This document shows positions 16,557 through 33,081 of a stretch of 64,000 bases of DNA, piece after piece. The notes under the pieces are model-generated. The model saw only the letters and a program-made list of their open reading frames with translations, made no database searches and had not been told where the DNA came from. The first letter of the stretch is position 1. The number at the start of each line of letters is the position of its first letter. Source of the stretch: Actinomycetota bacterium (GTDB lineage Bacteria > Actinomycetota > AC-67); assembly GCA_020201525.1 (NCBI GenBank), contig JAIVGO010000105.1, forward strand, positions 57-64,056. The letters are read 5' to 3'. The position numbers and the translations under genes are program-made.

Positions 16557-17738
16557 TCAGCGCTCCTTCGGCAATCCAAGAATGCGCTCGCCCACGATGT
16601 TGCGTTGCACTTGCGACGTTCCGGCCGCGATCGTCATCGACATCGCGTGAAGCCAGCCGCGGACATGTTCGGCTGTCTCCTGATCCTCCAGCGATAGCGA
16701 CGAGCGATCGAGGAGGCGCATCGCGAGGTCCCCCATCCGGTGACGAGCCTCTGTGTAGTGGAGCTTGAACACCGACCCTCCGAGGCCCGGGACGCCCGTC
16801 CCGCGCGCGGCTTGCGTTACATTGCGCTTCGTCAGCGCCCACAGCGCATCGAAGTCGGCCGCCAGGTGTCCCAAGTCCCTGCGGATGCCGGCGTCGTCCC
16901 ACGCGGTTCCGTCTGCGCGTGGAATCTTTCGTGCGAGATCGGCGAGACGTTCGAGCATCCGCAAGGACGAAAGCAGCTCGCTCACAAATGCGGTTCCACG
17001 CTCGAAGCTGAACGTCACCATCGCGATGCGCCAGCCGTCGTTTTCGTCCCCAACGCGATTCGCCACCGGCACCCGCACGTCGTTGAAGAACACTTCGCTG
17101 AATTCGCGAGAGCCGGCGATCGTCCGCATCGGCCGCACCTCGATGCCCGGCGCGTCCATCGGCAGGATGAGCCATGTAATGCCCTCGTGCTTCGGAGCAT
17201 CCGCGTCGGTACGCACCAACAGCTCCCCGTAATCGGCAACGTGCGCAAATGAGGTCCAAATCTTTTGGCCGTTGACGACGTAGTGATCTCCGTCTCGGAC
17301 CGCCTTCGTCTGCAACGAGGCGAGGTCCGAGCCGGCGTTCGGCTCCGAGAAACATTGGCACCAAACTTCCTCGCCGCGCAGGATCTTCGGCAAGAATCGA
17401 GCCTTTTGCTCGTCACTACCTTCCGCGACGAGCGTAGGCCCGGCGTGCAACAGGCCGACGAAATTCACGCCGACGTACGGCGCGCCGGCTCGTTCGGTCT
17501 CTTCGAGAAAGATCAACTGCTCCGCAGGCGTTGCTTCGCGCCCGCCGACGGCACGCGGCCAATCGATGCCGGCGTAACCTGCCTCGAACAGCATCCGCTG
17601 CCACGTCGTGTCGTAGGTGCGCCGTGCGTGCCACTCCTCCCCCGAAGGCTTCGGCGGCAATGCCGGAAGCACATTCAGGAGCCACGCACGCAACTCCGCG
17701 CGAAAGCGTTCTTCTGATTCCGAGTACCTGAGATCCAC
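16557..17738 (-). CDS. Acyl-CoA dehydrogenase, large (alpha-type) subunit; start re-set to GTG (VDLRYSESEERF...)
   Basis: The ACAD N-terminus consensus begins at DLRYSESEERFRAELRAWL. The tool's 82-aa N-terminal extension is Arg-rich junk and overlaps the NTF2 gene. The CTGACGGTGTGTCA motif lies 25 bp upstream. Confidence 0.8.
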   Translation of the reverse strand: MDLRYSESEERFRAELRAWLLNVLPALPPKPSGEEWHARRTYDTTWQRMLFEAGYAGIDWPRAVGGREATPAEQLIFLEETERAGAPYVGVNFVGLLHAGPTLVAEGSDEQKARFLPKILRGEEVWCQCFSEPNAGSDLASLQTKAVRDGDHYVVNGQKIWTSFAHVADYGELLVRTDADAPKHEGITWLILPMDAPGIEVRPMRTIAGSREFSEVFFNDVRVPVANRVGDENDGWRIAMVTFSFERGTAFVSELLSSLRMLERLADLARKIPRADGTAWDDAGIRRDLGHLAADFDALWALTKRNVTQAARGTGVPGLGGSVFKLHYTEARHRMGDLAMRLLDRSSLSLEDQETAEHVRGWLHAMSMTIAAGTSQVQRNIVGERILGLPKER

Positions 17739-17762
17739 CGGGCGACCAGTATAAATAGGAAT

Positions 17763-17776
17763 CTGACGGTGTGTCA
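17763..17776. promoter_or_regulatory. Second copy of CTGACGGTGTGTCA, 25 bp upstream of the ACAD alpha-subunit start (internal promoter within the long minus-strand array)
   Basis: 14/14 identical to the site at 4715-4728. Confidence 0.5.
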
Positions 17777-17815
17777 GGCGCCGTCGGAAGGACTCTCTGA
17801 TGACCGTCCAGCTGC

Positions 17816-18205
17816 CTAGTTGGCACCGGGTAGTTCGCCGGCCGAAATGGGTGTCGAGTGGCGGCGCCACAAAAGCCAGCGTCCACCGCGACGTCTCCAA
17901 ACATCTGAAATCACGAACACACCGCTCCTGTCTTGACCGAGAACCGTGGCGTTCATCCCGGCGCGCTGCAACACCGTGGCGCAATCGCCGTCTACGTCGA
18001 CGCTCAATTCCTCGACCTCGTATGAATGCACAATGTAGTCCGGCAGAACATCGAGCCAGCGCTGTCTTGGCATGACGGCACGGGCCGGATGCGCAAGCAC
18101 GAGCGCAAACTTATCATCCAATAAGTCTTCCGCGGCCTTCGCGTCCCGCTCTTCCACGCACCGTTGAAAGGCGAGCATTCTCTGTTCCAGATCGCTCGAT
18201 GTCAT
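17816..18205 (-). CDS. NTF2-like/SnoaL-like (DUF4440-type) small protein; start re-set to MTSSDLEQ
   Basis: Composition and length fit an NTF2 fold. GGAG RBS 6 nt before the ATG at 18205. Confidence 0.55.
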   Translation of the reverse strand: MTSSDLEQRMLAFQRCVEERDAKAAEDLLDDKFALVLAHPARAVMPRQRWLDVLPDYIVHSYEVEELSVDVDGDCATVLQRAGMNATVLGQDRSGVFVISDVWRRRGGRWLLWRRHSTPISAGELPGAN

Positions 18206-18259
18206 TGTCACTCCAGGTCGATTTTCATGTTGGCATTGCGGCGTCATGTCGGACGAGCG

Positions 18260-19051
18260 TCACCACAACTGGTCGGTGTACGTGTCCGTACCGGGGATCG
18301 TCGGGATGAACGGGGACGCCCACAACAAGTTCGCCAGCCCCATTCGCTCTAGTTCCTTGCCGTGCGCCGCCAGGCGGTCGTTCCACACATCCATCGGGTC
18401 CCGATCCAGAAACCACAACGTCACGAAACGCTGCTTGTCGCCGGCCACGCGCGGCACGTCGGCTGGGGCGTCTTCGGGGATCGGAACGGGTGTGAAGTAC
18501 AAGCACATGGCGACCGCGCTGCCGGCAAGTGTGTTCGGCAAGTATTCGTCGCGATACCACGCGCCGACACGCGCGCGATCCACGCCGGCCGTCGCTTCCC
18601 CGATCACCACCGCAGCACCGCGGAAGGGGTGATCCAGCGCAAGCTCCGCCGGAACGCCGTCGTCGTCACGGAAGGCGCCGAAATCGTAGCGATACATTTT
18701 CGTGTGGACGTGGTCTCGTTCGGCAAACATCCGATTCTCGCGGTGCAGCCGGTGCACCTCCTTCGCCGCCCAGCCGCCCCACTCTTGCGATTGCGCCTTC
18801 GAAATCCAGTACAGCGCGAGGTACGAGCCCACCATCGGATCCGGCGCGATCGGTGAGTCCGCCGGGTACCGAAGCTCCTTGTACGGACGCGTCGCGACGA
18901 AGCGGCGTCCCGCGAGTATTCCGGGCCCGACCATGCAACCCGCGTAAAAGTGGTCGCGCTCATACCAACGGTTGTACGCGACTTGGTGATCCTTCCACGG
19001 CTCGACGATCGTAAGCAGCATCGAGCCGAGCTTCACGGGGTAATCATCCAT
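18260..19051 (-). CDS. Conserved hypothetical protein (263 aa), family not recognised; start re-set to MDDYPVKLGSM
   Basis: High GC3 and Trp/Tyr-rich, protein-like sequence. The tool's N-terminal 68 aa is Arg-rich junk and overlaps the next gene. Confidence 0.6.
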   Translation of the reverse strand: MDDYPVKLGSMLLTIVEPWKDHQVAYNRWYERDHFYAGCMVGPGILAGRRFVATRPYKELRYPADSPIAPDPMVGSYLALYWISKAQSQEWGGWAAKEVHRLHRENRMFAERDHVHTKMYRYDFGAFRDDDGVPAELALDHPFRGAAVVIGEATAGVDRARVGAWYRDEYLPNTLAGSAVAMCLYFTPVPIPEDAPADVPRVAGDKQRFVTLWFLDRDPMDVWNDRLAAHGKELERMGLANLLWASPFIPTIPGTDTYTDQLW

Positions 19052-19053
19052 GT

Positions 19054-19299
19054 CTAGTCGATGATCGAGAACGTCGGCTGCTGGGTGCCGACCTCCCAAA
19101 CCATCGCGGCCTCGAGTACCCGGCCGTTCACGATCAGATCGATGAGCCGGTCCTCTCCTACGAGCACAGAAAGGCGGGTCGTCGTCTGATCCCGCATCGC
19201 TTCTTCGAGCTGCTTCTGAGCGGTCGCAACATCGGTGTCTTCGGCGAGCGTCCACCGCTCTGCGTTCGGATCGGAACCGAGTCTCACGTACTTGCCCAT
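19054..19299 (-). CDS. Small hypothetical protein (81 aa)
   Basis: About 80% GC at third positions. GGAGG RBS (CTGAGGAGGGGAGCGATG) upstream. Sits snugly between fadD and the downstream gene. Confidence 0.6.
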   Translation of the reverse strand: MGKYVRLGSDPNAERWTLAEDTDVATAQKQLEEAMRDQTTTRLSVLVGEDRLIDLIVNGRVLEAAMVWEVGTQQPTFSIID

Positions 19300-19310
19300 C
19301 GCTCCCCTCC

Positions 19311-20873
19311 TCAGATTGATTGCGCTCGTTCGCGCAGCTCGTACTTGAGCACCTTACCGCTTGCGTTCACCGGCAGGGCGTCCACGATCACGACGCGCCG
19401 CGGCACTTTGTAATTGGCCATCTGCTCGCGCGCCCACGCAATGACTTCGGATGCATCGATCGCCTGGCCCGCACGCGGCACCACGAACGCGACACCGACC
19501 TCGCCGAGCCGATCGTCCGGCACACCTACGACGGCCGCCGCTGCAACACGTGGATGACGCAGCAACTCGTTCTCTATCTCCGCCGGATAGGCGTTGAAGC
19601 CGCCGACGATGAACATGTCCTTCTTTCGATCGGTGATCCGGAGATAGCCGCGATGGTCCATCACGCCGATGTCGCCGGTGTGCAACCACCCGCCGGCGTC
19701 GATCACTTCCGCGGTTTGTGCTGGATCTTCGAAATAGCCGCGCATCACGTTGTAGCCGCGAATGACGACCTCGCCGGGATCTCCTCGCGGCACCTCGGCG
19801 CCGGCATCGTCGACGACGCGAACCTCCGTATCCGGGATGGCGCATCCCGACGTGTTCGCAATGGTTTCCTCGTCGTCATTCGGGCGGCACATCGTCGCGG
19901 TGCCTGTGGACTCCGTTAGGCCGTACGCGGTGAGAATCGTCTCGAAGGTCAAGTCTTTCCGCATCTGCTTGATGAGCTCGACCGGCACCACTGCTGCACC
20001 CGTTACGGCCACACGCAAAGACGAAAGGTCGTATGCCGTCCGGTCCGGGTGATTGAGGATCGACTGATACAGCGTCGGCGGGCCCGGCAGGAACGTCACT
20101 CGCTCCTCGGAGATCCGTTGCAAGACCGACGGAACATCGAAGACCGGGTGCGGGATTGTGACCGCGCCACGCATGATCGCCGAGAGGAATCCCGCCTTGT
20201 AGCCGAACGTGTGGAAGAACGGGTTGACGACGAGATAGCGATCGCCTTCGCGGAGCCCGACGATGCGGGACCACACCTCGAACACACGTAACGTCTGCCC
20301 GTGCGTCGTCATGACGCCTTTCGGATGACCAGTCGTGCCCGACGTAAAGATGATGTCGGATAGGTCGTCCGCGCCGACTTCTCGCACTTGGTCAACGGCA
20401 GTCGATAGAAATTCCTTCCACCCGATCGTGCCGTCCGGTTCGTCACCGCGGAGCACAACGATCTTTTCCAACGAGGGAATCGGCCCGACGTCGCGCAGCA
20501 AATGCACATAGTCGGTGTTGAGAAAGCCTGTGACGGTGAACAAGAGCTTTGCACGGCTCTTTTCGAGCACGTAAGCGGCTTCACGTCCCTTGAAGCGAGT
20601 ATTGATCGGTACCACAACACCGCCCGCCGACAGGGCCCCGAGCGCCGCAACGATCCACTCCTGCATGTTCGGGGCCCAGATCGCAACACGGTCGCCGGGA
20701 TCGATTCCCCCGGCGATACACGCGCGCGATGCTTCGCGCACAGCCTGGTACAGGTCGGTGAACGTCAAGCGCACGTCACCGTCCACAACGGCCTCGTTCG
20801 ACCCGAATCGCTCGGCGGACGTGTGTATCACACCGGGGATGCTTCCCCACAACAAGTCTCCGCGCGTCTCCAC
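19311..20873 (-). CDS. AMP-dependent acyl-CoA synthetase
   Basis: FTSGTTGHPKG motif. 520 aa. Confidence 0.9.
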   Translation of the reverse strand: METRGDLLWGSIPGVIHTSAERFGSNEAVVDGDVRLTFTDLYQAVREASRACIAGGIDPGDRVAIWAPNMQEWIVAALGALSAGGVVVPINTRFKGREAAYVLEKSRAKLLFTVTGFLNTDYVHLLRDVGPIPSLEKIVVLRGDEPDGTIGWKEFLSTAVDQVREVGADDLSDIIFTSGTTGHPKGVMTTHGQTLRVFEVWSRIVGLREGDRYLVVNPFFHTFGYKAGFLSAIMRGAVTIPHPVFDVPSVLQRISEERVTFLPGPPTLYQSILNHPDRTAYDLSSLRVAVTGAAVVPVELIKQMRKDLTFETILTAYGLTESTGTATMCRPNDDEETIANTSGCAIPDTEVRVVDDAGAEVPRGDPGEVVIRGYNVMRGYFEDPAQTAEVIDAGGWLHTGDIGVMDHRGYLRITDRKKDMFIVGGFNAYPAEIENELLRHPRVAAAAVVGVPDDRLGEVGVAFVVPRAGQAIDASEVIAWAREQMANYKVPRRVVIVDALPVNASGKVLKYELRERAQSI

Positions 20874-20882
20874 TTGCGAGCC

Positions 20883-21725
20883 CTAGCGGAACGCCGCCAC
20901 GGTCTTCGCGTAGTCGTCGAGCACCGGGAGGATTTCGTCCACGTAGCCTCCCGTGATTCCGACGACAACCTCTGTGACGCCGACCGATTGGAAGTACTCG
21001 AGTTTCTTCGGATCGGGAATGCTCCCGCACGGAACGATTTCGATGTTCGAGGGGTCGCGCCCGGCTTTCTCGAACGCCGCGCGAAGCTCCGGCAGCGCGG
21101 CCGCGACACCGCGCGCGCCGATGGGAATCCACCCATCGGCGTACTCCGCAATGTGGGCGAAGAGCTTCGGTCCCGCGCCGCCGCCGATCAGCACCGGCGG
21201 TCGCGGCTGCTGCACGGGCTTCGGCCACGCCCAGCTCGGCTCGAATCGAACGAACTCACCGTCGAACGACGCCTCGTTTTGCGTCCACAGCGCCTCCATT
21301 GCGAGCATGCATTCCCGCGTGATCTCGCGACGCTGCCGGAAATCAACGCCGTGATCGGTCATTTCCTCGACGTTCCAGCCAAACCCGATACCGAACACGA
21401 AACGCCCGCCCGACACGTGATCGAGCGAAGCCACTTCCTTCGCCGTGACGATCGGATCACGTTCCGCGACGAGGCAGATGCCCGTCCCGAGCCGGATCTT
21501 GGTCGTCGCACATGCCGCGACGGTCAGAGCGACAAAAGGATCCATCGTTCTCCGGTACTGCTCGGGAAGCGGCTCCCCCATCGGCGCCGGTGTCGTGCGG
21601 CTGATCGGAATGTGCGTGTGCTCGGGGAAAAAGATCGAGTCGAAGCCACGATCCTCTGCTTCACGAGCGAGCTCGCCCGGACCCATGGTCGTGTCGGTCA
21701 CGAACATCGTTATGCCGAACCGCAT
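20883..21725 (-). CDS. LLM-class F420-dependent oxidoreductase (TIGR03619-like)
   Basis: 280-aa luciferase-like fold (MRFGITMFVTD...GGRFVFGIGFGW). Confidence 0.8.
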   Translation of the reverse strand: MRFGITMFVTDTTMGPGELAREAEDRGFDSIFFPEHTHIPISRTTPAPMGEPLPEQYRRTMDPFVALTVAACATTKIRLGTGICLVAERDPIVTAKEVASLDHVSGGRFVFGIGFGWNVEEMTDHGVDFRQRREITRECMLAMEALWTQNEASFDGEFVRFEPSWAWPKPVQQPRPPVLIGGGAGPKLFAHIAEYADGWIPIGARGVAAALPELRAAFEKAGRDPSNIEIVPCGSIPDPKKLEYFQSVGVTEVVVGITGGYVDEILPVLDDYAKTVAAFR

Positions 21726-21733
21726 ATGTCCCC

Positions 21734-22147
21734 CTAACGATCGTGGCGCGTCGCCACCAGCAATGCCGACGCAACGACGAGCGTGACGACGATACCGCCC
21801 ATCAGTCCGGCAGCGTCACCCGCCGGCAACAGCGACAGCTTGAAGGATACGAAATAGGCGTGGAGTACCAAGAAAGCAACTTGGCCAATGAGTGCCGCAC
21901 GGATCGCGCCCGAGTCCATCACCAGCGACGCATACGACAACGCAGCGGAAAGCGCGACGTACATCGCCCCAAAATCGCGCACGAGCTCGTCGTTGTACGG
22001 ACCGAGTGGCCGCAGCCAATGCCGGCCGAATCCGGGGAACGACGACCAAAACGCGTGCGGCGATGCCAGCGCCCATAGCCCGGTCGCCCCTTGCGACACA
22101 GCAAGAGCGAGCAGCCCTCCGCGAACCCACGTGGCGCGGGACGTCAT
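21734..22147 (-). CDS. Hypothetical integral membrane protein (137 aa, about 4 TM segments)
   Basis: Hydrophobic segments. ATGA overlap with the upstream ACAD stop. Confidence 0.6.
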   Translation of the reverse strand: MTSRATWVRGGLLALAVSQGATGLWALASPHAFWSSFPGFGRHWLRPLGPYNDELVRDFGAMYVALSAALSYASLVMDSGAIRAALIGQVAFLVLHAYFVSFKLSLLPAGDAAGLMGGIVVTLVVASALLVATRHDR

Positions 22148-23325
22148 CCCGCCGTCCGTGTCTGGCTGAACGGCAAGCCCTTATCGGGACGAGCCTCCCG
22201 CGGCAACCCCAAAACGCGCTCCGCGATAACGTTGCGCTGAATCTCGTCGGTGCCGCCGCCGATGTGGAGCGACCGTTCCCACAAGAAGTGTTGCTGAGGG
22301 CCCTCGCCGGCGAGTGCTCCGTCCGGTCCGAGCAGATGCACGCCGAGCAACGCGGCGTCTGAAGACAGATTCGCTATGGCGAGCTTTAAGATCGACCCTT
22401 CCGCTGTCGGGATCTCGCCTCTTCGAAGCTTCGACAAAATGCGTTTGTTCAGGAAGTCGAGAATCCGTTCTTGGGTATAGACGCGCGCCAGGTTGTCGCG
22501 CACGACGGGGTCGAGTGCGTACCGAGAGCGCGCGATCTCCGCCAGTTTCACGAACGGAAATGTGTACCCACCCGTCGAGGTGCCGATCGACATCCGTTCG
22601 TGCATCAGTGTGGTCGTGGCCACGCGCCATCCGTCACCCGGTTCGCCGATACGATTCGCGTCGGGCACTCGCACGTCGGATAAAAACACTTCGCTGAAGT
22701 GCGCATCTCCGTCGATTTGGCGAAGCGGACGCACCTCGACGCCGGGAGTGTGCATGTCGACGATGAAATACGCGAGCCCTTCGTGCTTCGGCTTGTCTGG
22801 ATCAAACCGCGCCAGAAGGATCCCGTAATCGGCCTCATCGGCTTGCGAGCTCCACACCTTCTGACCGTTGACGATCCACTCGTCGCCGTCCCGGAATGCG
22901 CGCGTCGCGAGCGACGCGAGGTCGGAGCCGGCGCCCGGCTCGGAAAAAAGTTGGCACCAGATCTCGTTGCCGTTGAGCATCGCGCGAATGTGTCGCTGCT
23001 TCTGCTCCTCGGTGCCGTGCGCGATGATCGTCGGTCCGGCCATCCCGAAGCCGACCATGTTGAAAACGATGTTCGCACCCACACGCGCCTTTTCTTCCGC
23101 CCAAATTGCCGACTCGACCGGCCCGTACCCGCGCCCGCCGTACTCAACCGGCCAGTGCGGCGCCCCATAGTCACCGGCAGCCAGCGCACGATGCCACGAC
23201 CGCGCCTGCTCTGTCGTATAAGGCGGGTCGCCGTTTTCCGATCGCCACACCGGGAAGCTCTCTTCGAGCCACGCGCGCGCCTCCGCTCGAACGCGCGCCT
23301 CTTCAGCGGAATCGTTGAAGTCCAT
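22144..23325 (-). CDS. Acyl-CoA dehydrogenase; start re-set to MDFNDSAEEARVRAEARAWL
   Basis: ACAD N-terminal consensus at the internal Met. That ATG overlaps the stop of the upstream thiolase (TAATG). The tool's 114-aa extension is junk. Confidence 0.9.
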   Translation of the reverse strand: MDFNDSAEEARVRAEARAWLEESFPVWRSENGDPPYTTEQARSWHRALAAGDYGAPHWPVEYGGRGYGPVESAIWAEEKARVGANIVFNMVGFGMAGPTIIAHGTEEQKQRHIRAMLNGNEIWCQLFSEPGAGSDLASLATRAFRDGDEWIVNGQKVWSSQADEADYGILLARFDPDKPKHEGLAYFIVDMHTPGVEVRPLRQIDGDAHFSEVFLSDVRVPDANRIGEPGDGWRVATTTLMHERMSIGTSTGGYTFPFVKLAEIARSRYALDPVVRDNLARVYTQERILDFLNKRILSKLRRGEIPTAEGSILKLAIANLSSDAALLGVHLLGPDGALAGEGPQQHFLWERSLHIGGGTDEIQRNVIAERVLGLPREARPDKGLPFSQTRTAG

Positions 23326-24491
23326 TACGGTTTTCCGACAATGAGACCGCTCGTCGGCACGCCAGTGCCGGCCGTCACGAGTACGTTCTGGACGCTGTCG
23401 ACCTGATTCACCGCGGTGCCGCGCACTTGCCGAACCGCTTCGGTTATTCCGTTCATCCCGTGCACGTAGCCCTCGCCGAGCTGCCCTCCGTTCGTGTTGA
23501 CGGGCAACCGGCCGCCGATCTCGATGGCACCGTCGCGAACGAAGTGACGGCCCTCGCCGCGGCCGCAAAAGCCGAACTCTTCGAGCTGCGTCAGTACGAA
23601 CGGCGTGAAGTGATCGTAGATAACGGCGGTTTGGATGTCGTCCGGTCCCAGACCCGATTGGTCCCACATGCGACGCGCTACCAGACCCATCTCCGGCAAG
23701 CCGCTGATGTCGTCGCGGTAGTAGCTCGTCATGCCCTCTTGATCGTCGGCCGAGCCTTGCGCCGCGCCCTTGATCACCGCCGGCGGCTGCTTCAAGTCAC
23801 GGGCGCGCTCCACCGACGTGACGATGACGGCCACAGCGCCGTCCGTTTCCTGACAGCAATCGAGCAGATGCAAAGGCTCGACGATCCACCGCGACGCTTG
23901 ATGCTCGTCGAGCGTGATCGGCTGTTCGTAGAACCAGGCATGTGGATTCGTCGCCGCGTGCTTACGATCCGCGACCGCGACCAAGCCGAAGTCTTCACTC
24001 GTCGCGCCGAATTCGTGCATGTAACGGCGCGCCGCCATCGCCACCCAGCTCGCCGGCGTCACGAGCCCGAACGGCGTGTACCAGCTGTAATGAACGAGCT
24101 CCTGTGTCGGTCCGGCGGGCCGCGTATGAACACCCGAGCCGAACCGCCGCCACGAACGGCCGTTCAACGCGCGGTAGCACACCACGACATTCGCTTCGCC
24201 GGTCGCGACCGCCATCGCGGCCTGCTGAACGACGGCGCACGCAGCGCCGCCCCCGTAGTGGACCCGGCTGAAGAACGTCAAGTCGCCCATGCCGAGGTTC
24301 CGGGCAATCTCGATCTCTTCGGTCGTGTCCATCGTGAACGTGACCATGCCGTCGACTTCTTCCGGAGCAATGCCGGCATCGTCGAGTGCGGCCTTCACTG
24401 ATTCAACCGCCATGCGCAGCTCGGTGCGGCCGGAATCCTTCGAGAATTCCGTGGCGCCGATGCCGGCGATCGCCGCGCGGCCGGAAATCAC
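23325..24491 (-). CDS. SCP-x/Ltp2-type thiolase-fold protein; GTG start (MISGRAAIAGIGATEF) overlapping the hotdog stop (GTGA)
   Basis: Thiolase-like sequence from VVVISGRAAIAGIG onward. The tool's single 590-aa ORF fuses it to upstream hotdog sequence only because the frame has no stop. Confidence 0.85.
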   Translation of the reverse strand: MISGRAAIAGIGATEFSKDSGRTELRMAVESVKAALDDAGIAPEEVDGMVTFTMDTTEEIEIARNLGMGDLTFFSRVHYGGGAACAVVQQAAMAVATGEANVVVCYRALNGRSWRRFGSGVHTRPAGPTQELVHYSWYTPFGLVTPASWVAMAARRYMHEFGATSEDFGLVAVADRKHAATNPHAWFYEQPITLDEHQASRWIVEPLHLLDCCQETDGAVAVIVTSVERARDLKQPPAVIKGAAQGSADDQEGMTSYYRDDISGLPEMGLVARRMWDQSGLGPDDIQTAVIYDHFTPFVLTQLEEFGFCGRGEGRHFVRDGAIEIGGRLPVNTNGGQLGEGYVHGMNGITEAVRQVRGTAVNQVDSVQNVLVTAGTGVPTSGLIVGKP

Positions 24492-24821
24492 GACGACCCT
24501 CGAGGCAGCGTGAGCGTTATGGTCCCGGTCACGTGGTCGCCGAGAGAATTCGCGCCGCGAATCGCAATTTCGACGCGTCCGCTCGCGTCCTTCGACGTCA
24601 CAGTACCGGTCTCGTCCGACGAAGCCGTTGGTTGTGAGGATGTTCATGAAGATGTCCTTCGAGCCGCTTCGCTGTGCGATGTCCTTGTCATGGTGCACGT
24701 CTTGGAAATCTCGCGATGCGAGCGCACCCGCGACGATCAACGTAGGCGTTATAGGGACATCGAGCGGCGGCAACTCGTCGCCGACGGATACCTGGTCCGC
24801 ACGCAACGTCTTCAGTCGCAC
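24488..24821 (-). pseudogene. MaoC-like (R)-hydratase hotdog gene (ChsH1-like small subunit, carrying the D/H hydratase-2 motif) disrupted by an apparent frameshift near 24600-24646
   Basis: The N-terminal part (VRLKTLRADQVSVGDELPPLDVPITPTLIVAGALASRDFQDVHHD...DIFMNILTTNGFVG) reads in one frame. The conserved C-terminus (SKDASGRVEIAIRGANSLGDHVTGTITLTLPRGSS*) reads in the +1 frame and ends with a TGA overlapping the thiolase GTG. Confidence 0.55.
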
Positions 24822-25873
24822 GTCGCCATCACGTCCCCAAGCTTCTCCAACTGCGCGGCTGCCCCGCCGAGCGTCAATTCGATTTGCTTTGCCCAGAGCG
24901 TGTACCGGTGCAGTGGATACGACACATCGACACCGATGCCACCGTGCAAGTGCATCGCGGCCGACAACACTCGCTGTCCTGCCTCGGACGCCCAGAATTT
25001 CGCGATGAGGACCTCCTCCGTTGCTTCGAATCCTTCGGAGACGCGCCAGGCTGCCTGCCACATCGTCCACCGCATCGCTTCGACGTCGATGTAGCAATCA
25101 GCCACACGTTGCTGTACGGCCTGAAAGCTTCCGAGCGGGCGTCCGAACTGCTCGCGCGACGACGTGTACTCGGCTGTGAGGCGAAGCGCCTTCTCGGCTA
25201 CGCCGGTCTGCATCGCGCAAAGCCCGAGCAGACCTCGCTCGCGCAGCCAGGCAATCGCAGTCGCCTCGCCGAGCAATTCCGCAGAAACGCCGCCGAACGA
25301 CACGTCGAAACGCAGCTCATGACTCGTGACAACGTTGCGCGCGGTAGAAACGGATGCCACATCGACGAGAAACAGGGCATTCGACGCGACGACAACAATC
25401 GCAGATGCGAGATGCACGGCAGGCACGCCAAACGCAAGCCCGTCAAGCACCCACGCAGCACCGTCGCGTCGTGCCGTTACGGAGGACTCGTCTTCGGGCA
25501 GTGCGCCCGTCAGAATGATCTTTCCTTCAACGACCCCCGGCAAGTACCGCGTCTTTTGCTCCGGGGTACCGAACTGCGAAAGAGGAAGCGCGCCGAGAAC
25601 GAGTGCTTCGAACGCAGGCACCGGTGCTACCGCCCGACCTACTTCCTCGAGCAACAAGCACAGCTCGATGATCCCATGGCCACTGCCGCCGAATTCCTCC
25701 GAGACTGCGATGCCGAGAAGGTTCGCCCGTGCAAGCTCTTCCCACAGCGCCCGGTCGAACGCGTCTTCCGTCGCCGCGATCTCCTTGAGCCGGTCGGCCG
25801 TCAGCCGGCCGTCGAAGATCTGTCGCGCCAGCCCGCGAACGGCGTCTTGCTCTTCGGTCAGGGCAAGATTCAT
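24812..25873 (-). CDS. Acyl-CoA dehydrogenase, small (beta-type, 353 aa) subunit
   Basis: ACAD fold (...GSFQAVQQ...). ATGA overlap with the upstream ChsH2-like gene. Probably partners the 393-aa ACAD at 26802-27983. Confidence 0.8.
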   Translation of the reverse strand: MNLALTEEQDAVRGLARQIFDGRLTADRLKEIAATEDAFDRALWEELARANLLGIAVSEEFGGSGHGIIELCLLLEEVGRAVAPVPAFEALVLGALPLSQFGTPEQKTRYLPGVVEGKIILTGALPEDESSVTARRDGAAWVLDGLAFGVPAVHLASAIVVVASNALFLVDVASVSTARNVVTSHELRFDVSFGGVSAELLGEATAIAWLRERGLLGLCAMQTGVAEKALRLTAEYTSSREQFGRPLGSFQAVQQRVADCYIDVEAMRWTMWQAAWRVSEGFEATEEVLIAKFWASEAGQRVLSAAMHLHGGIGVDVSYPLHRYTLWAKQIELTLGGAAAQLEKLGDVMATCD

Positions 25874-26805
25874 GATGCCTCCGTCGGGCGAAACAGCGGC
25901 ACCGTCAATGAATCGTCGACCGCTTGAAACGAAACCTGCACCGGCAGCCCGATCGCGACCCCCGACGGCTCGACTCCGATTACGTTCGACACGATCCGAA
26001 CGCCCTCTTCCAGAGCGATAAGCGCAACGACGTAGGGAGTTTCGAATCCCGGAATCGGCGGGTAATGATGCACGACGAAGCTGTACACCTCACCGCGGCC
26101 GCTCGATGTGACGGTGTCCCAGTCCAGCGAACGGCAGGCGCCGCACATCGGTCTCGGGGGGTGGCGTAACGATCCGCAGGACGAACAACGCTGAATCAGC
26201 AGTTTCCCTTGCGCCACGCCGTCCCAGAAAAACTTCGTGTCGTCGTTCATCGACGGATGCGCGCGCACTCCGACAGGGGTGGCGGCGGCGCGTGACGCCG
26301 GGCGGAACTTCAGCATCCGAAATCGCATCATTCCGACGATCTCGCCGTTTTGATCGCGCCACACGGACTCAGTATCGACAAAGTGTCCCGCGCCGAGACC
26401 GGTCTGCTTTTCATTCGACACGCCGGCGATCGACGCTGTGACGGTTACAAGGTCGCCCGGCCGCAAGTACCGCACGTACTCCTGATCGCAATTCGTTGCG
26501 ATCACCGACGTGAACCCTGCATCGTCGAGCTCGGCAAACAACAACGACTGCCCTCCGGTTTCTTCCGGTTTGACACCGAGACGCCGCATCGTCCACGCCT
26601 GCAACATCGTCGGGGGGGCAACGATGCCGTCGTGTACTGATTCAAACGATGGATCCGTGTAAACGGGGTTGGTGTCACCAACGGCGTCGCACCAGTGCTG
26701 GATCATCGCTTCGTTGACCGGCCACGGCGCCGTGCGCGGCGATTCGATCTCGCGGCCGACGTAACCGCGAAGACGCTCGATGAAGGTTTGCTCCGCGACG
26801 CTCAT
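25870..26805 (-). CDS. ChsH2-like protein: N-terminal MaoC-type hotdog domain fused to a C-terminal DUF35 (Zn-ribbon + OB-fold) domain; start re-set to MSVAEQTF (311 aa)
   Basis: N-terminus has a GDTNPVYTD hydratase-2-like motif with Tyr in place of His. C-terminus has CSSCGSLRHPPRPMCGAC and an OB fold. The ATG overlaps the upstream ACAD stop (ATGA). Confidence 0.8.
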   Translation of the reverse strand: MSVAEQTFIERLRGYVGREIESPRTAPWPVNEAMIQHWCDAVGDTNPVYTDPSFESVHDGIVAPPTMLQAWTMRRLGVKPEETGGQSLLFAELDDAGFTSVIATNCDQEYVRYLRPGDLVTVTASIAGVSNEKQTGLGAGHFVDTESVWRDQNGEIVGMMRFRMLKFRPASRAAATPVGVRAHPSMNDDTKFFWDGVAQGKLLIQRCSSCGSLRHPPRPMCGACRSLDWDTVTSSGRGEVYSFVVHHYPPIPGFETPYVVALIALEEGVRIVSNVIGVEPSGVAIGLPVQVSFQAVDDSLTVPLFRPTEAS

Positions 26806-27983
26806 CGTTTCGCCCTCGGCATACCCAGCCCGGCGGTGGCGATGATCTCGCGCTGCACCTCGTTGACGCCACCGCCAAACGTCAGCACGGTCGCCCAGCG
26901 CCATGTGTGCTCGAGTCGGCCGCCGATGATCGCGGCAGGGGACTCTTGCCGCACGGTACCGGCTTCGCCGACGACTTCCATCAAATACTTGTACGCCTCG
27001 ATGAAGAGCTCACTGCCGTACACCTTTGCAGCCGACGCGTCGGCCGGGTTAATCGTGCCGCGCGTCATGCCCCACGCCATCTTCCAGTTCAGAAGCTTGA
27101 GAGCTTCGGTTCGCGCGCGGACGCGCGCGAGATTCATCCGCACCCACGGCCGGTCGATAACCCGTTGGCCGTTCGCGCGTCGGGTTTCGCACGCCCATGC
27201 GCGAACGTCGTCGAGCAAACCGTCGAGGCGGCCCGAGCAAGCGAGCGCGACGCGTTCGTGATTGAGCTGCGTCGTGATGAGCCGCCAGCCTTCGTTTTCG
27301 GCCCCAACGAGCGACGACGCCGGCACGCGGACGTCTTCGAAGAACGTCGCGTTCGTGCGACCGTCGTCGAACGTGTCGATCGGCGTCCAGGAGAAGCCGG
27401 GCACCGACGCATCCACGATGAAGATGCTGATGCCCTTGTGCTTTGGAGCGTCTGGGTCGGTGCGAGCCGCCAGCCAAATGAAATCGGCGTCGTGCCCGCC
27501 CGTCGTGAAGATCTTGTGGCCGTTGATGATGTAGGTATCGCCCTCGCGCACCGCACGTGTGCGCAGCGACGCCAAGTCGGTTCCCGCGCTGGGCTCGGTG
27601 TAGCCGATCGCAAAGTGCACTTCGCCGCGCACGATCGCCGGGACGAATCGCTTTTTCTGTTCGTCGCTTCCGTGTTCGAGCAGCGTCGGGCCGACCGTGT
27701 TCAACGTCACGAGGGGAATCGGCGCGATCGCGCGCCGCGCCTCGTCGAAAAAGATGTACTGCTCGATCGGCGTCGCACCGCGACCGCCGTATTCCTCGGG
27801 ATAGCCGAGCCCGAGCCAGCCGTCCGACCCCATTTGCCTCACCAGGCGACGAAACAGCGGACCCTGATGCTCGCCGGCATTGAGGCCGAGCTCGGCGCGC
27901 ACCTCAGGAGAAATCAGATGTGCGAAGTACGCGCGCAACTCATCACGAAGCGCCTTTTGCTCCGGTGAGTAATCGACGTACAT
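26802..27983 (-). CDS. Acyl-CoA dehydrogenase (alpha-type, 393 aa)
   Basis: Canonical ACAD pattern (...FSEPSAGTDLASL...GGGVNEVQREII). Confidence 0.9.
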   Translation of the reverse strand: MYVDYSPEQKALRDELRAYFAHLISPEVRAELGLNAGEHQGPLFRRLVRQMGSDGWLGLGYPEEYGGRGATPIEQYIFFDEARRAIAPIPLVTLNTVGPTLLEHGSDEQKKRFVPAIVRGEVHFAIGYTEPSAGTDLASLRTRAVREGDTYIINGHKIFTTGGHDADFIWLAARTDPDAPKHKGISIFIVDASVPGFSWTPIDTFDDGRTNATFFEDVRVPASSLVGAENEGWRLITTQLNHERVALACSGRLDGLLDDVRAWACETRRANGQRVIDRPWVRMNLARVRARTEALKLLNWKMAWGMTRGTINPADASAAKVYGSELFIEAYKYLMEVVGEAGTVRQESPAAIIGGRLEHTWRWATVLTFGGGVNEVQREIIATAGLGMPRAKR

Positions 27984-27989
27984 ACCGGC

Positions 27990-28763
27990 CTATCTTGGGC
28001 GCGGAATCGGCCCGCCCCACCCGATGAACGACGTTGCGCCGCCATCAACGATGAACTCGGCGCCGGTGCAGTACGAGCTTTCATCCGACGCGAGAAACAA
28101 TGCCATCTGCGCGATGTCGAGCGGCTTGCCGGCGCGCCGCAATGGAACCGCGCCGAATAACGCATCCAAATCGACGTCCTGAAGACCTTGTGCTCGCAGC
28201 ATGGGCGTGTCGATCGTGCCCGGATGAATCGAGTTCACTCGAACTCCGTGCTTACCGAATTCGGACGCCGCTACCTTCGTCATGCCACGCACCGCAAACT
28301 TCGACGCAGTGTAAGCGGCCAATCCTGCGCTGCCACGCAACCCTTCGACGGATGAAATGTTGATGATCGAACCACCCTGCTTTTTCAGCAGTGGATAGAC
28401 GGCCCGCATCCCCAGAAACACACCTACCTGATTGACGTTGATCACGTCCATGTACTCCTGCAGCGTCGATTGAACGATCTTTCCGAATCGCAGAATCCCC
28501 GCGTTGTTCATCAAGACGTGCAGGCCGCCAAACCTCGAGTGCGCTTCCTCGACGGCCGACGACCAATCGGCCTCATTCGTCACGTCGGTGTGCACATATG
28601 CTGCCGCGTCGCCGAGTTCCTTTGCCGTTGCGATGCCGTCCGCGTCGAGCACGTCTGCCACCACGACCTGTGCGCCTTCCGCCACGAACAAGCGAGCGGT
28701 TTCCGCGCCGCTGCCCCGGGCGCCGCCCGTGATCAGCGCAACTTTTCCGTCGAGTCGGCCCAT
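27990..28763 (-). CDS. SDR-family dehydrogenase (3-hydroxyacyl-CoA / hydroxysteroid-dehydrogenase-like); start re-set to MGRLDGKVALITGG
   Basis: TGGARGSG motif and YTASKFAV (YxxxK). 257 aa. Confidence 0.85.
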   Translation of the reverse strand: MGRLDGKVALITGGARGSGAETARLFVAEGAQVVVADVLDADGIATAKELGDAAAYVHTDVTNEADWSSAVEEAHSRFGGLHVLMNNAGILRFGKIVQSTLQEYMDVINVNQVGVFLGMRAVYPLLKKQGGSIINISSVEGLRGSAGLAAYTASKFAVRGMTKVAASEFGKHGVRVNSIHPGTIDTPMLRAQGLQDVDLDALFGAVPLRRAGKPLDIAQMALFLASDESSYCTGAEFIVDGGATSFIGWGGPIPRPR

Positions 28764-28764
28764 G

Positions 28765-29895
28765 TCAGATTCCGATGCGGTCCGCGAGCAGCGAGCGATG
28801 ATATGTCGGGTCACCGAACAGCAGCTCCGACGACTTCGCCCGCTTGAAGTACAAGTGCGAGTCGTGCTCCCACGTAAAGCCGATTCCGCCGTGCACTTGA
28901 ATGTTTTCTGTTGCGGCGAAGAAGAATGCCTCCGCGCAATACGCCTTGGCGAGAGACGCGACTACGGGCAGCTCCTCATTGTCGTCGGCGGCGGCCCACA
29001 TGGCGTAATACGCAGCGGTTTTCGCCGACTCGACGCGCAGCAGGATGTCGGCGCACTTGTGCTTGATCGCTTGGAATGAGCCGATTGGCCGGCCGAACTG
29101 CACGCGCTCCTTGGCATATTCCACGGCCATGTCCAAACAGCGTGTAGCCCCTCCCGTCATTTCCGCCGACAAACACACAGCGATCTGATCGAGCGTCTTC
29201 GACAACGCCGGCCACGCAGCGCCGGGTTGCCCCAGCGGCGCCGCTCGCACTCCCGAGAATTCGAGGCGAGCCTGTTTCCGCGTCTTGTCGATCGTTTCGA
29301 GCAGCGTGCGGGTCAACCCGTCTGCATCTCCATCGACGACGAACAGCCCGACGCCGTTCGTCCCCGCGGTCCCTTCGAGTCGCGCAGCGACGACGATGAG
29401 ATCGGCGATGTGCCCGTCCAGCACGTACGACTTCGTGCCGTCGAGCGTCCACGCGTCGTCTGAACGTTGCGCGCGAAGAGTGATGGCATCCGCATCCCAC
29501 GCGCCGCCGGGCTCGCCGAGCGCGAGCGTGGCGATCTTCTCGCCGGAGGCAATGCCGGGCAGCAAATTCTCCTTGTCGCGCTCCGACCCGGCATTGAGAA
29601 TGGCATTCGCGCCCGCGCACACCGAGGAAAGAAACGGCGCGCACAACAACACGCGTCCCATTTCCTCCAGGACGATGCCGGTCTCGACGAACGAAAAACC
29701 CTGTCCGCCGTACTCTTCGGGAATCGCGAGCCCTTGCAGGCCGAGCTCCTGCGCCATTTGCTTCCATACCGCAGGCTCGTAGCCCTCGTCGGTTTCCATC
29801 AGCCGGCGCACCTCCGCCGACGGCGATTTGTCTTCGAGGAAACGACGGATTGTTCGGCGAAGCTCTTCCTGTTCGTCGCTGAAGGTGAAATTCAC
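28765..29895 (-). CDS. Acyl-CoA dehydrogenase
   Basis: ACAD pattern (...GSFQAIKH...IQVHGGIGFTWE). 376 aa. Confidence 0.9.
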   Translation of the reverse strand: MNFTFSDEQEELRRTIRRFLEDKSPSAEVRRLMETDEGYEPAVWKQMAQELGLQGLAIPEEYGGQGFSFVETGIVLEEMGRVLLCAPFLSSVCAGANAILNAGSERDKENLLPGIASGEKIATLALGEPGGAWDADAITLRAQRSDDAWTLDGTKSYVLDGHIADLIVVAARLEGTAGTNGVGLFVVDGDADGLTRTLLETIDKTRKQARLEFSGVRAAPLGQPGAAWPALSKTLDQIAVCLSAEMTGGATRCLDMAVEYAKERVQFGRPIGSFQAIKHKCADILLRVESAKTAAYYAMWAAADDNEELPVVASLAKAYCAEAFFFAATENIQVHGGIGFTWEHDSHLYFKRAKSSELLFGDPTYHRSLLADRIGI

Positions 29896-29904
29896 ACGAG
29901 CCTC

Positions 29905-31053
29905 CTACGGCTTCTCGCCCGAAACAACCCACATCGCGAAGAACTGCGATCCGCCGCCGTATGCGTGTCCCAGGCCGATCCGCGCCCCGTCTACTTGATG
30001 TTCGCCTGCTCGGCCACGCACTTGCAACGCCGCCTCGGCGAAACGCAGCATGCCGGAAGCACCGATCGGGTTCGAGGAAAGGACGCCGCCGGACATATTG
30101 ACTGGGAGATCCCCGTCGAGTGCGGTAACGCCGTCTTCGGTCAGCCTCCAGCCGGTGCCGATCTCGGTGAAGCCCAGGTTTTCGAGCCACATCGGCTCGT
30201 ACCAACTGAAGGGCACATACATCTCGACGCAATCGATGTCGTTCCGCGGATCCTTGATGCCGGCCTGTGCGTACACCGCCTCCGCGCAGTCGCGGCCGGC
30301 CCTCGGGTTGATCTCGTCTCGGCCGGCCATGCCGAGCGGTTCGCTGCGCACGGCGGTACCAAGCACCCACGCCGGCTCATTTCTGGTTGCGACATCTTCA
30401 GACGCAAGCACCATCGCACAGGCGCCGTCGGAGGACGGGCAGCATTCCAGAAATCGGATCGGATCCCAGAGCACGGGCGACGCGGCAACCTGCTCGAGCG
30501 TGATCCCTTCCATTCGCAGGTGCGCGAACGGATTCTTCAGCGCGTTGAGCCGGTCCTTCAGCGCGACCTTGATGCCGATATCGCTCGGCGCTCCGGATCG
30601 GCGAATGTATTCGCGGATGTGCGGCGCAAAGTAGCCTCCGGCGCCGGCGACGATCGGCTGCTGGAACGGGATCTTCGGCGCCAGCGCCCACATCGCGTTG
30701 GATTCGGACTGCTTTTCGTACGCGACGGTGAGGACGCGCTTGAAGCGGCCGCTCTGCACATGATGCGCTGCGACAACCGCGGTGGACCCGCCGACGCTGC
30801 CGGCCGTGTGGACGCGAAGGAGCGGCTTGCCCACGGCCCCGAGCGCATCGGCGAGATAGAGCTCGGGCATCATCATGCCTTCGAACATGTCCGGTGCCTT
30901 GCCGAGAACTACCGCTTCGATGTCGCTCCACGTCAGCCCCGCATCTTCCAAGGCACGCAGAGCAGCTTCTCGTACGAGACCGGCTATCGACACATCGGTC
31001 CGCGCCGTGTCGTGCTTCGTTTGTCCGATGCCGATGACGCCGCAGAGCTCCAT
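29905..31053 (-). CDS. SCP-x/Ltp3-Ltp4-type thiolase-fold lipid-transfer protein
   Basis: Thiolase-like sequence, non-FadA type. 382 aa. Adjacent to a second paralogue. Confidence 0.85.
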   Translation of the reverse strand: MELCGVIGIGQTKHDTARTDVSIAGLVREAALRALEDAGLTWSDIEAVVLGKAPDMFEGMMMPELYLADALGAVGKPLLRVHTAGSVGGSTAVVAAHHVQSGRFKRVLTVAYEKQSESNAMWALAPKIPFQQPIVAGAGGYFAPHIREYIRRSGAPSDIGIKVALKDRLNALKNPFAHLRMEGITLEQVAASPVLWDPIRFLECCPSSDGACAMVLASEDVATRNEPAWVLGTAVRSEPLGMAGRDEINPRAGRDCAEAVYAQAGIKDPRNDIDCVEMYVPFSWYEPMWLENLGFTEIGTGWRLTEDGVTALDGDLPVNMSGGVLSSNPIGASGMLRFAEAALQVRGRAGEHQVDGARIGLGHAYGGGSQFFAMWVVSGEKP

Positions 31054-32109: not shown

Positions 32110-32593
32110 CGCGGTACTCCATGATCTTTTCAATTGGGACGTCGGGCTCGCCGGTGGGCGTGAAGTACTTAATGCTGAGCAACGTCGGCGCAAGCTCTTC
32201 GTCCGGCACCCACACGGCCTTCACCCGCATACCCATCCTCACGTCTTCAGCCGCGACTTCCTGTAGGAGGCCCACCAAAGGAATATCGGAACCGTCCAGG
32301 AGAATGTGCGCGGAGACATACGGCACAGGCACGGATCCGGCGAACGGAATGTTCACGATGCAGAATGTCGTCACCGTCCCGCTGTCTGCCACGGTAACTT
32401 CCTCTTCCGTCGGCACGCCGCACTTCGGACAGGAACCACGCGGGGGAACGTACACCTTGGCGCATCGCGGGCATTTTTGGCCGACGATCTCCTTCGAAGC
32501 GATCCGCTTCAAGAAGCGCGAGGCCGCGACACCCGGCGTATAGGTGTACTCCAGGCGGACCGGCGTGATGATTCCGGTGACCGGGTCGCTCAT
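32102..32593 (-). CDS. DUF35-family Zn-ribbon/OB-fold protein; start re-set to MSDPVTGIITP
   Basis: CPRCAKVYVPPRGSCPKC zinc ribbon plus OB fold. ATGA overlap with the upstream gene. The tool's 71-aa extension is Arg-rich junk. Confidence 0.8.
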   Translation of the reverse strand: MSDPVTGIITPVRLEYTYTPGVAASRFLKRIASKEIVGQKCPRCAKVYVPPRGSCPKCGVPTEEEVTVADSGTVTTFCIVNIPFAGSVPVPYVSAHILLDGSDIPLVGLLQEVAAEDVRMGMRVKAVWVPDEELAPTLLSIKYFTPTGEPDVPIEKIMEYRDA

Positions 32594-33045: not shown

Positions 33046-33047
33046 AG

Positions 33048-33061: not shown

Positions 33062-33081
33062 ATTTTTTGTGCAAGGCGGCT

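What the first reader, a model, noticed from the sequence alone, without database searches (positions are those of the whole stretch)
24488..24821. ChsH1-like MaoC hotdog gene split across two reading frames between an ACAD and the Ltp2-like thiolase
The hotdog N-terminus, including the catalytic hydratase-2 motif SRDFQDVHHD, reads in the same frame as the downstream thiolase through ...FMNILTTNGFVG. The conserved hotdog C-terminus (DASGRVEIAIRGANSLGDHVTGTITLTLPRGSS*) is in the +1 frame, and its TGA overlaps the thiolase GTG (GTGA), exactly as expected for an intact coupled gene. In between, the zero frame gives only low-complexity Arg/Asp residues (RDRYCDVEGRERTRRNCDSRREF). A 1-nt indel near 24600-24646 would restore a hotdog of about 110 aa. 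As annotated by ORF callers this yields an artefactual 590-aa hotdog-thiolase fusion. In this locus the partner ChsH2-like protein (25870-26805) has Tyr replacing the catalytic His, so this small subunit may carry the catalytic residues. A genuine frameshift would then inactivate the hydratase.
Basis: seen in the sequence. Interest (0 to 1): 0.65.

Follow-up and report, generated by a model that had tools for sequence, protein, structure and literature searches.

The report
ChsH1 hydratase gene with 92-bp deletion
The small catalytic subunit gene of a steroid side-chain hydratase is broken in this metagenome-assembled genome by a clean 92-base deletion, not a 1-base slip; a near-identical sister assembly carries the intact gene, so this is an ordinary pseudogene or an assembly error.

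Summary
On the minus strand, 24821-24488 holds a ChsH1-type MaoC hotdog gene whose first 70 codons read in the Ltp2 frame. Its last 40 codons read in another frame and end in the GTGA stop/start overlap with ltp2.

The proposed cause is wrong. A sister MAG (GCA_046262895.1) is 100% identical on both sides and carries an intact 141-aa gene. Against it, the window lacks exactly 92 nt between 24612 and 24611, that is codons 71-100 plus two bases of codon 101.

The missing stretch is conserved. It is present without gaps in all 80 genomic homologues and in all 120 best protein hits (132-164 aa). It encodes the end of the central helix and about 1.5 beta-strands, so the gene as written cannot make a folded hydratase subunit.

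The locus is a normal igr-type operon (the two ChsE acyl-CoA dehydrogenase (ACAD) subunits, ChsH2, ChsH1, Ltp2). ChsH2 carries the known His-to-Tyr substitution, so ChsH1 is the only catalytic subunit.

Without reads I cannot say whether the deletion is a recent allele (about 0.6) or an assembly artefact (about 0.35). Interest is low.

The parts
24612..24821 (-). chsH1 remnant, 5' part: GTG start (24821-24819) and codons 1-70, including the catalytic Asp38/His43 (motif SRDFQDVHHD). It is in the same reading frame as ltp2.
   Evidence: It is 100% identical in DNA to L001 10001-10210. The dyad aligns with D29/H34 of M. tuberculosis ChsH1, PDB 4WNB_B, E 9e-39.
24611..24612 (-). Deletion junction. 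92 nt present in the sister MAG (L001 10211-10302, encoding FVTDWAGPEALLKKVAIRLGVPNYPDDTMR plus 2 nt of Leu101) are absent between these two bases.
   Evidence: No flanking direct repeat or microhomology. The 92 nt occur nowhere else in the window.
24488..24611 (-). chsH1 remnant, 3' part: last base of codon 101, codons 102-141 and the TGA stop (24490-24488). It is out of frame with the 5' part. In the 5' frame it reads as 40 junk residues.
   Evidence: (100% identity to P0001 residues 102-141 in the other frame).
23325..24491 (-). ltp2: steroid side-chain aldolase of the thiolase fold, 388 aa, intact. Its GTG start overlaps the chsH1 stop (GTGA). A GAGGG Shine-Dalgarno-like motif lies 5 nt upstream.
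   Evidence: PDB 6OK1_A, E 6e-179, aligned residue 2 to residue 4. NCBIfam PRK07855, 703 bits, positions 1-387 on 3-389/390. Annotated as MCA1833355.1, 388 aa.
24812..25873 (-). Acyl-CoA dehydrogenase subunit, 353 aa, one of the ChsE1-ChsE2-type pair. Intact.
   Evidence: PDB 6WY8_A (Tcur3481) E 6e-85; 4X28_D E 2e-61. Pfam hits to Acyl-CoA_dh_N and Acyl-CoA_dh_1 only.
25870..26805 (-). chsH2: non-catalytic MaoC-like domain followed by zinc ribbon and OB-fold (DUF35), 311 aa, intact. Tyr replaces the catalytic His (GDTNPVYTD).
   Evidence: Pfam FAS1_DH_region, zf-ChsH2 and OB_ChsH2_C. PDB 4WNB_A E 1.6e-38 and 6OK1_B E 1.4e-42.
26802..27983 (-). Acyl-CoA dehydrogenase subunit, 393 aa, the other member of the ChsE1-ChsE2-type pair. 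Intact.
   Evidence: PDB 4X28_A E 6e-138; 6WY8_B (Tcur3483) E 4e-131.

Best explanation
The feature is the ChsH1 orthologue of an igr-type steroid side-chain operon. ChsH1 is the small catalytic beta subunit of the heteromeric MaoC-type enoyl-CoA hydratase ChsH1-ChsH2. The operon order here is ACAD, chsH2, ACAD, chsH1, ltp2.

Shown:
- The gene has lost 92 bp (codons 71-100 plus two bases of codon 101) relative to an otherwise base-identical allele in a sister MAG.
- The missing piece is conserved in every homologue examined.
- It encodes the C-terminal end of the central hotdog helix, one full beta-strand and the start of the next.
- The loss also shifts the frame.

Inferred:
- No folded ChsH1 can be made.
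- ChsH2 lacks the catalytic His, so the hydratase has no active site.
- The enoyl-CoA made by the ACAD pair cannot be hydrated, and Ltp2 receives no substrate.
- Because 92 = 2 mod 3, ribosomes that start at the chsH1 GTG now read straight into ltp2. They would make a 498-aa product: 70 ChsH1 residues, 40 junk residues, then full Ltp2. The stop/start coupling is lost. Ltp2 can still start at its own GTG behind a GAGGG motif.

My preferred reading is that the deletion is a genuine, very recent loss-of-function allele in the sampled population and not an error.
For: Deletion defined by DNA comparison:
- Window 24612-34821 equals L001 1-10210 at 100%.
- Window 14487-24611 equals L001 10303-20426 with one homopolymer difference.
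- 92 nt of L001 have no counterpart in the window.

The ancestral state is the long form:
- The 120 best of 7980 protein homologues are 132-164 aa.
- 80 of 80 genomic loci cover residues 71-101 with zero gaps and a median 68% identity.
- The intact allele reaches the Pfam MaoC_dehydratas threshold (29.0 bits against a cut-off of 27). The window products match nothing.

Structure: the AF2 model of the intact allele has H58-76, E81-89 and E97-108, with block pLDDT of 78-87 in this region.

Family and role:
- PDB 4WNB_B ChsH1, E 9e-39, with D29/H34 conserved.
- ChsH2, Ltp2 and both ACADs match the solved ChsH2, Ltp2 and ChsE proteins.
- Only ChsH1 carries the dyad, and ChsH2 has Tyr for His (PMC11321319).

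The deletion is in the deposited record: accessions MCA1833355 and MCA1833356 are consecutive, so no protein lies between them.

For a real allele:
- The two MAGs are distinct consensus genotypes, differing by one synonymous SNP at 43110.
- The window assembly has the correct homopolymer length where the sister MAG is frameshifted.
- The junction has no repeat that could mislead a graph assembler.
- In a de Bruijn graph assembly, junction k-mers must come from reads. This is inference from how such assemblers work; the assembler used is unknown.
Against: - No reads are available, so the allele cannot be verified.
- A sister MAG of the same population (one substitution in 32.7 kb) has the intact gene.
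- Both remnants are still 100% identical to the intact allele, and every neighbouring gene is intact. There is therefore no sign of relaxed selection, which fits an artefact as well as a very recent event.
- Two of the three differences between the MAGs are indels that each break a gene. That ratio is more typical of technical error than of divergence, though the numbers are tiny.
- The sequencing platform and the assembler are unknown.
Confidence: 0.6

Rival explanations
1. Assembly or consensus artefact. The organism has an intact 141-aa chsH1, as in the sister MAG, and the 92-nt gap arose during assembly, contig merging or polishing of this MAG, or from a minor chimeric read path. Biologically nothing is broken.
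For: - The sister MAG GCA_046262895.1 is identical over 20.3 kb around the site and has the intact gene.
- The flanks show no further decay.
- The only other difference in that 20.3-kb stretch is a G4/G5 homopolymer length that breaks a gene in the sister MAG. So at least one of the two assemblies plausibly contains indel errors.
- MAG contigs are consensus sequences of populations.
Against: - There is no repeat or microhomology at the junction, and repeats are where assemblers usually collapse sequence.
- The window assembly is the one with the correct homopolymer length.
- 92 nt is far larger than typical polishing errors.
- The two MAGs differ by a synonymous SNP, so they are not the same consensus.
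Confidence: 0.35
2. One reading: a single-nucleotide indel (sequencing error or mutation) near 24600-24646 splits an otherwise complete hotdog gene of about 110 aa.
Against: - The joined 112-aa product lacks 30 residues, many of them invariant or nearly invariant in homologues: T73, D74, W75, G77, P78, I87, R88, L89, G90, P92, N93, Y94, P95, D97, T98, M99.
- It matches no Pfam family.
- The base-identical sister allele shows that exactly 92 nt are missing.
- No homologue is shorter than 132 aa among the 120 best.
Confidence: 0.01
3. The sequence as written is functional. It could be a naturally short hotdog, a programmed frameshift that joins the two parts, or a genuine ChsH1(N)-Ltp2 fusion enzyme.
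For: The chsH1 start is in frame with ltp2, giving an uninterrupted 498-codon ORF. The catalytic Asp and His are retained in the N-terminal 70 residues.
Against: - The core of the hotdog sheet is missing whichever frame is read.
- The 40 linker residues are the out-of-frame reading of the conserved C-terminus.
- Ltp2 homologues, the NCBIfam model and the solved structure all start at residue 1-4.
- 71 of 80 related loci have separate chsH1 and ltp2 genes.
- The exact 498-aa product is not in the 15-billion-protein collection.
Confidence: 0.02

Closest known systems
M. tuberculosis ChsH1 (Rv3541c), the catalytic subunit of the ChsH1-ChsH2 enoyl-CoA hydratase (PDB 4W78, 4WNB)
   Same: The intact sister allele aligns over residues 13-136 with E 9e-39 and the catalytic Asp and His are conserved. 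It is a single MaoC hotdog domain of about 130-140 aa. It is encoded next to chsH2 and directly upstream of ltp2. The partner ChsH2 has Tyr in place of the catalytic His.
   Different: The window copy lacks residues 71-101 and is frameshifted, so it is a remnant and not a member in working order. The gene order here is ACAD, chsH2, ACAD, chsH1, ltp2. My recollection that the M. tuberculosis igr operon runs fadE28, fadE29, chsH2, chsH1, ltp2 was not tested here.
MaoC family dehydratase MFN2641544.1 (P0001) of sister MAG GCA_046262895.1, contig JBHELV010000048.1
   Same: Same gene in the same population. DNA is 100% identical for 210 nt before and 124 nt after the lesion, and for about 10 kb on each side. 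Synteny is identical.
   Different: It carries the 92 nt that the window lacks, and is annotated as an intact 141-aa protein.
Thermomonospora curvata Ltp2-ChsH2(DUF35) aldolase complex (PDB 6OK1) and ACAD pair Tcur3481/Tcur3483 (PDB 6WY8)
   Same: The neighbours of the remnant are close homologues: Ltp2 E 6e-179, the DUF35 part of ChsH2 E 1.4e-42, and the ACADs E 6e-85 and 4e-131. The T. curvata locus-tag numbers 3481 and 3483, with one gene between them, suggest the same ACAD, chsH2, ACAD order. This is inference from the names only.
   Different: None of these proteins is the disrupted one. They only place the remnant in a complete, otherwise intact operon.
HadB / HadAB-type (3R)-hydroxyacyl-ACP dehydratase subunits (PDB 4RLJ, 5ZY8)
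   Same: Same MaoC hotdog superfamily and the same heteromeric logic of catalytic plus non-catalytic subunit. The sequence match is weak (E about 2e-7; NCBIfam HadB 39.8 bits).
   Different: Far below the NCBIfam cut-off (203 bits). The genomic context is steroid/acyl-CoA catabolism, not FAS-II.

Membership tests
ChsH1 (catalytic MaoC hotdog subunit of the steroid side-chain hydratase) | Complete single hotdog domain of about 130-145 aa: central helix plus antiparallel sheet | tested here: not met
   The window copy lacks codons 71-100 plus part of codon 101 and is frameshifted. It matches no Pfam family. The intact sister allele meets this feature: PF01575 at 29.0 bits against a cut-off of 27, with the AF2 hotdog topology.
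ChsH1 (catalytic MaoC hotdog subunit of the steroid side-chain hydratase) | Catalytic Asp/His dyad (D29/H34 in M. tuberculosis ChsH1) | tested here: met
   D38 and H43 in SRDFQDVHHD align with D29 and H34 of 4WNB_B. They lie in the retained N-terminal 70 residues. The role of the dyad is taken from PMC11321319.
ChsH1 (catalytic MaoC hotdog subunit of the steroid side-chain hydratase) | Encoded with a ChsH2 partner (inactive MaoC domain plus DUF35) and directly upstream of ltp2 | tested here: met
   chsH2 at 25870-26805. ltp2 at 23325-24491 with the GTGA overlap. The same adjacency occurs in 71 of 80 related loci.
ChsH1 (catalytic MaoC hotdog subunit of the steroid side-chain hydratase) | Forms a heteromer with ChsH2 and hydrates 3-oxo-4,17-pregnadiene-20-carboxyl-CoA | not testable with these tools
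   This needs protein expression and an enzyme assay. It is predicted to fail for the window allele.
igr-type steroid side-chain operon (ChsE1-ChsE2, ChsH1-ChsH2, Ltp2) | Heteromeric ACAD pair homologous to ChsE1-ChsE2 | tested here: met
   4X28_A E 6e-138 and 4X28_D E 2e-61. 6WY8_B E 4e-131 and 6WY8_A E 6e-85.
igr-type steroid side-chain operon (ChsE1-ChsE2, ChsH1-ChsH2, Ltp2) | Ltp2-type aldolase of the thiolase fold, full length without extension | tested here: met
   6OK1_A E 6e-179. NCBIfam PRK07855 at 703 bits against a cut-off of 469, end to end.
igr-type steroid side-chain operon (ChsE1-ChsE2, ChsH1-ChsH2, Ltp2) | The actual substrate is a steroid with a C3 side chain | not tested
   No steroid-ring degradation genes were looked for in the window. 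Substrate assignment rests on homology only.

The most novel reading that the evidence does not exclude
The deletion is a real allele kept at appreciable frequency in the natural population. It switches off the last cycle of steroid side-chain cleavage while creating an in-frame ChsH1(1-70)-linker-Ltp2 protein. This would be strain-level metabolic division of labour, or accumulation of a C22 steroid acid, in an uncultured Actinomycetota lineage. The same locus also carries a double-DUF35 gene split into two coupled ORFs, so it may be undergoing remodelling of its aldolase-hydratase complexes.
Probability: 0.06. Interest if true: 0.35.

Novelty: new member of a known kind. Interest (0 to 1): 0.12.

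Why it matters
It matters little beyond annotation hygiene. The gene should be flagged as a pseudogene caused by a 92-bp internal deletion, not "corrected" by one base and not merged with ltp2. Any metabolic reconstruction of this MAG should treat the ChsH1-ChsH2 hydration step as absent or unverified.

If the allele is real, it is a natural knockout of the only catalytic subunit of a well-studied steroid hydratase. An isogenic intact allele exists in a sister population, which could be used to ask whether side-chain cleavage is dispensable in that habitat.

The case also shows that two-frame homology does not imply a 1-nt indel. Comparison with a near-identical genome was needed to size the lesion.

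Tried and rejected
- 1-nt indel: rejected. The stitched 112-aa product lacks 30 conserved residues.
- Programmed frameshift or recoding: rejected for the same reason.
- Naturally short hotdog: rejected. No homologue under 132 aa among the best 120, and 80 of 80 genomic loci are ungapped over residues 71-101.
- Ltp2 with a genuine N-terminal extension: rejected.
- Replication slippage or microhomology-mediated deletion: no direct repeat brackets the junction. The nearest shared word, TGACCG, is offset by 5 nt and does not give the observed junction.
- The 92 nt moved elsewhere: no match longer than 13 nt in the window.
- A second ChsH1 paralogue in the window that could compensate: none. The best other tblastn hits have E of 0.008 or worse and are about 40 residues long.
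- Search for more copies of either allele: exact scans of genome contigs and metagenome contigs with the 32-nt 3' flank found nothing. The protein clusters hold only the two NCBI MAGs.
- The look-up of encoding contigs with proteins shared by both MAGs returned "not on record". Only proteins unique to the sister MAG could be fetched, so only 32.7 kb of the 64-kb window could be compared.
- A GC3 frame-plot screen for further frameshifts in the window was too coarse at 62.7% GC to be conclusive.

Full report
**What is in the sequence.** All genes of this region lie on the minus strand.
- A GTG at 24821-24819 lies 10 nt inside the end of the upstream acyl-CoA dehydrogenase gene. It opens a frame that reads VRLKTLRADQVSVGDELPPLDVPITPTLIVAGALASRDFQDVHHDKDIAQRSGSKDIFMNILTTNGFVGR.
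- The same frame then gives 40 Arg/Asp-rich residues and runs without a stop into the thiolase-fold gene.
- A second frame reads ...TGTVTSKDASGRVEIAIRGANSLGDHVTGTITLTLPRGSS*. Its TGA (24490-24488) overlaps the GTG of the thiolase-fold gene (24491-24489).
- The mechanical ORF list contains the 590-aa ORF 23325-25097.

**What the lesion really is.** A protein search with the two parts joined found 7980 homologues. The 120 best are all 132-164 aa.
- The best hit, P0001 (141 aa, "MaoC family dehydratase", MAG GCA_046262895.1), is identical to the window in both parts. It has about 30 extra residues between ...NGFVGR and TGTVTSK....
- I fetched its contig as locus L001 and compared DNA.
- Window 24612-34821 equals L001 1-10210 at 100%. 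Window 14487-24611 equals L001 10303-20426 except for one homopolymer base.
- L001 10211-10302 (92 nt) has no counterpart in the window.
- In gene coordinates the deletion runs from codon 71 position 1 to codon 101 position 2.
- The cause is therefore a 92-nt deletion, not a 1-nt indel. It removes 30 codons and shifts the frame by 2. This is why the 5' part is now in frame with ltp2, whose start overlaps the old stop by GTGA.
- No direct repeat or microhomology flanks the junction. The 92 nt are not elsewhere in the window.

**Direction of the change.** The long form is ancestral.
- In an alignment of 13 homologues, most of the deleted positions are invariant or nearly so. Examples are T73, D74, W75, G77, P78, I87, R88, L89, G90, P92, N93, Y94, P95, D97, T98 and M99.
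- In 80 genomic loci from species-representative genomes, the hotdog covers residues 71-101 in 80 of 80. There are zero gap columns there, and identity in that stretch is 55-84%.
- The intact allele passes the Pfam MaoC_dehydratas threshold (29.0 against 27 bits). Neither the frame-A product nor the joined 112-aa product matches any Pfam family.
- An AlphaFold2 model of the intact allele (mean pLDDT 76; blocks 78-87 over the region concerned) has the central helix at 58-76 and strands at 81-89, 97-108, 113-122 and 125-135.
- The deletion removes the end of the helix, the whole first strand and the start of the second. The frameshift removes the rest.

**What the gene is.**
- P0001 matches M. 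tuberculosis ChsH1 (PDB 4WNB_B) with E 9e-39. The alignment places D38/H43 of this protein on D29/H34 of ChsH1.
- The protein at 25870-26805 has the FAS1_DH_region, zf-ChsH2 and OB_ChsH2_C domains. It matches ChsH2 (4WNB_A, E 1.6e-38) and the ChsH2 DUF35 domain (6OK1_B, E 1.4e-42). Its motif GDTNPVYTD has Tyr where M. tuberculosis ChsH2 (GDRNPIYVD) also has Tyr.
- The literature states three things (PMC11321319). Only ChsH1 has the catalytic His/Asp dyad. ChsH2 has Tyr for His and binds the steroid rings. The heterodimer has a single active site built from the ChsH1 active-site housing and the ChsH2 pocket.
- The downstream gene is an Ltp2 orthologue (6OK1_A, E 6e-179; NCBIfam PRK07855, 703 bits). 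It aligns end to end from its first residues.
- The two ACADs match the two chains of ChsE1-ChsE2 (4X28) and the Tcur3481/Tcur3483 pair (6WY8).
- The locus is therefore an ordinary igr-type operon in the order ACAD, chsH2, ACAD, chsH1, ltp2.
- In related genomes a separate ltp2 follows chsH1 within 100 nt in 71 of 80 loci. In 57 of those the start overlaps the stop as NTGA.

**Consequences (inferred).**
- Without the sheet, the 70-residue N-terminal piece cannot form a hotdog. ChsH2 cannot supply the catalytic His, so the hydratase step is lost.
- No second ChsH1-like gene is present in the window.
- Translation from the chsH1 start would now give a 498-aa product: 70 native residues, 40 junk residues and Ltp2.
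- Ltp2 may still initiate at its own GTG behind a GAGGG motif.

**Real allele or artefact.**
- Exact look-ups show that the window comes from an NCBI MAG ("Actinomycetota bacterium", locus tags LC750_, contig of 67,059 nt). Ltp2 (MCA1833355.1) and the ACAD (MCA1833356.1) have consecutive accessions there, so no protein is annotated for the hotdog. The deletion is in the deposited record.
- The sister MAG (tags ABR548_) annotates ChsH2, ACAD, MaoC and Ltp2 as MFN2641542 to MFN2641545.
- Over the 32.7 kb I could compare (L001 and L082), the two assemblies differ by three things only. These are the 92-nt deletion, a G5 (window) versus G4 (sister) run at 21575-21579, and one synonymous G/T difference at 43110.
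- The G run leaves an F420-dependent LLM oxidoreductase intact in the window and unannotated in the sister.
- So each assembly has one broken gene that the other has intact, and the remnants show no further decay.
- I lean towards a real, very recent allele (about 0.6). There is no repeat at the junction. The window assembly is the accurate one at the homopolymer. The SNP shows two distinct consensus genotypes.
- An assembly artefact (about 0.35) cannot be excluded without reads.

**Verdict.** It is wrong in mechanism and size. The system is well known and the lesion is an ordinary deletion, or possibly an error, in a MAG. Interest is low.

Noticed in passing
window 32102-33045 (minus strand): A double-DUF35 (two OB-fold domains, one zinc ribbon) gene next to the 382-aa and 351-aa thiolase-fold genes is split into two ORFs in different frames: 151 aa (32590-33045) and 163 aa (32102-32593). 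They are joined by an ATGA stop/start overlap that falls exactly in the variable inter-domain linker. All 120 best homologues are single chains of 294-366 aa covering 94-99% of the joined sequence. No protein is annotated there in either MAG, and the sequence is identical in the sister MAG. It could be a frameshift pseudogene or a functional gene fission.
   Followed up: partly
window 21575-21579 (gene 20883-21725, minus strand): This is a homopolymer of five G on the coding (minus) strand here, against four in sister MAG GCA_046262895.1. The 280-aa F420-dependent LLM oxidoreductase (TIGR03619, 259 bits) is intact and annotated here (MCA1833352.1). It has no called gene in the sister contig.
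   Followed up: partly
window 43110 (ABC transporter gene 42048-45023, minus strand): This is the only base substitution found between the two MAGs in 32.7 kb: G here and T in the sister on the coding (minus) strand, GCG versus GCT, both Ala, so synonymous.
   Followed up: yes
window 14051-17984 and 28765-32109 (minus strand): The window carries several further sets of paired ACADs, SCP2-type thiolase-fold genes and DUF35 proteins, plus three acyl-CoA synthetases. This indicates a large acyl-CoA/steroid-like side-chain catabolic island. Substrates were not assigned.
   Followed up: no
window 21734-22147 (minus strand): A 137-aa ORF between the ACAD and the LLM oxidoreductase has no Pfam or NCBIfam match. 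It is annotated as hypothetical in both MAGs.
   Followed up: no
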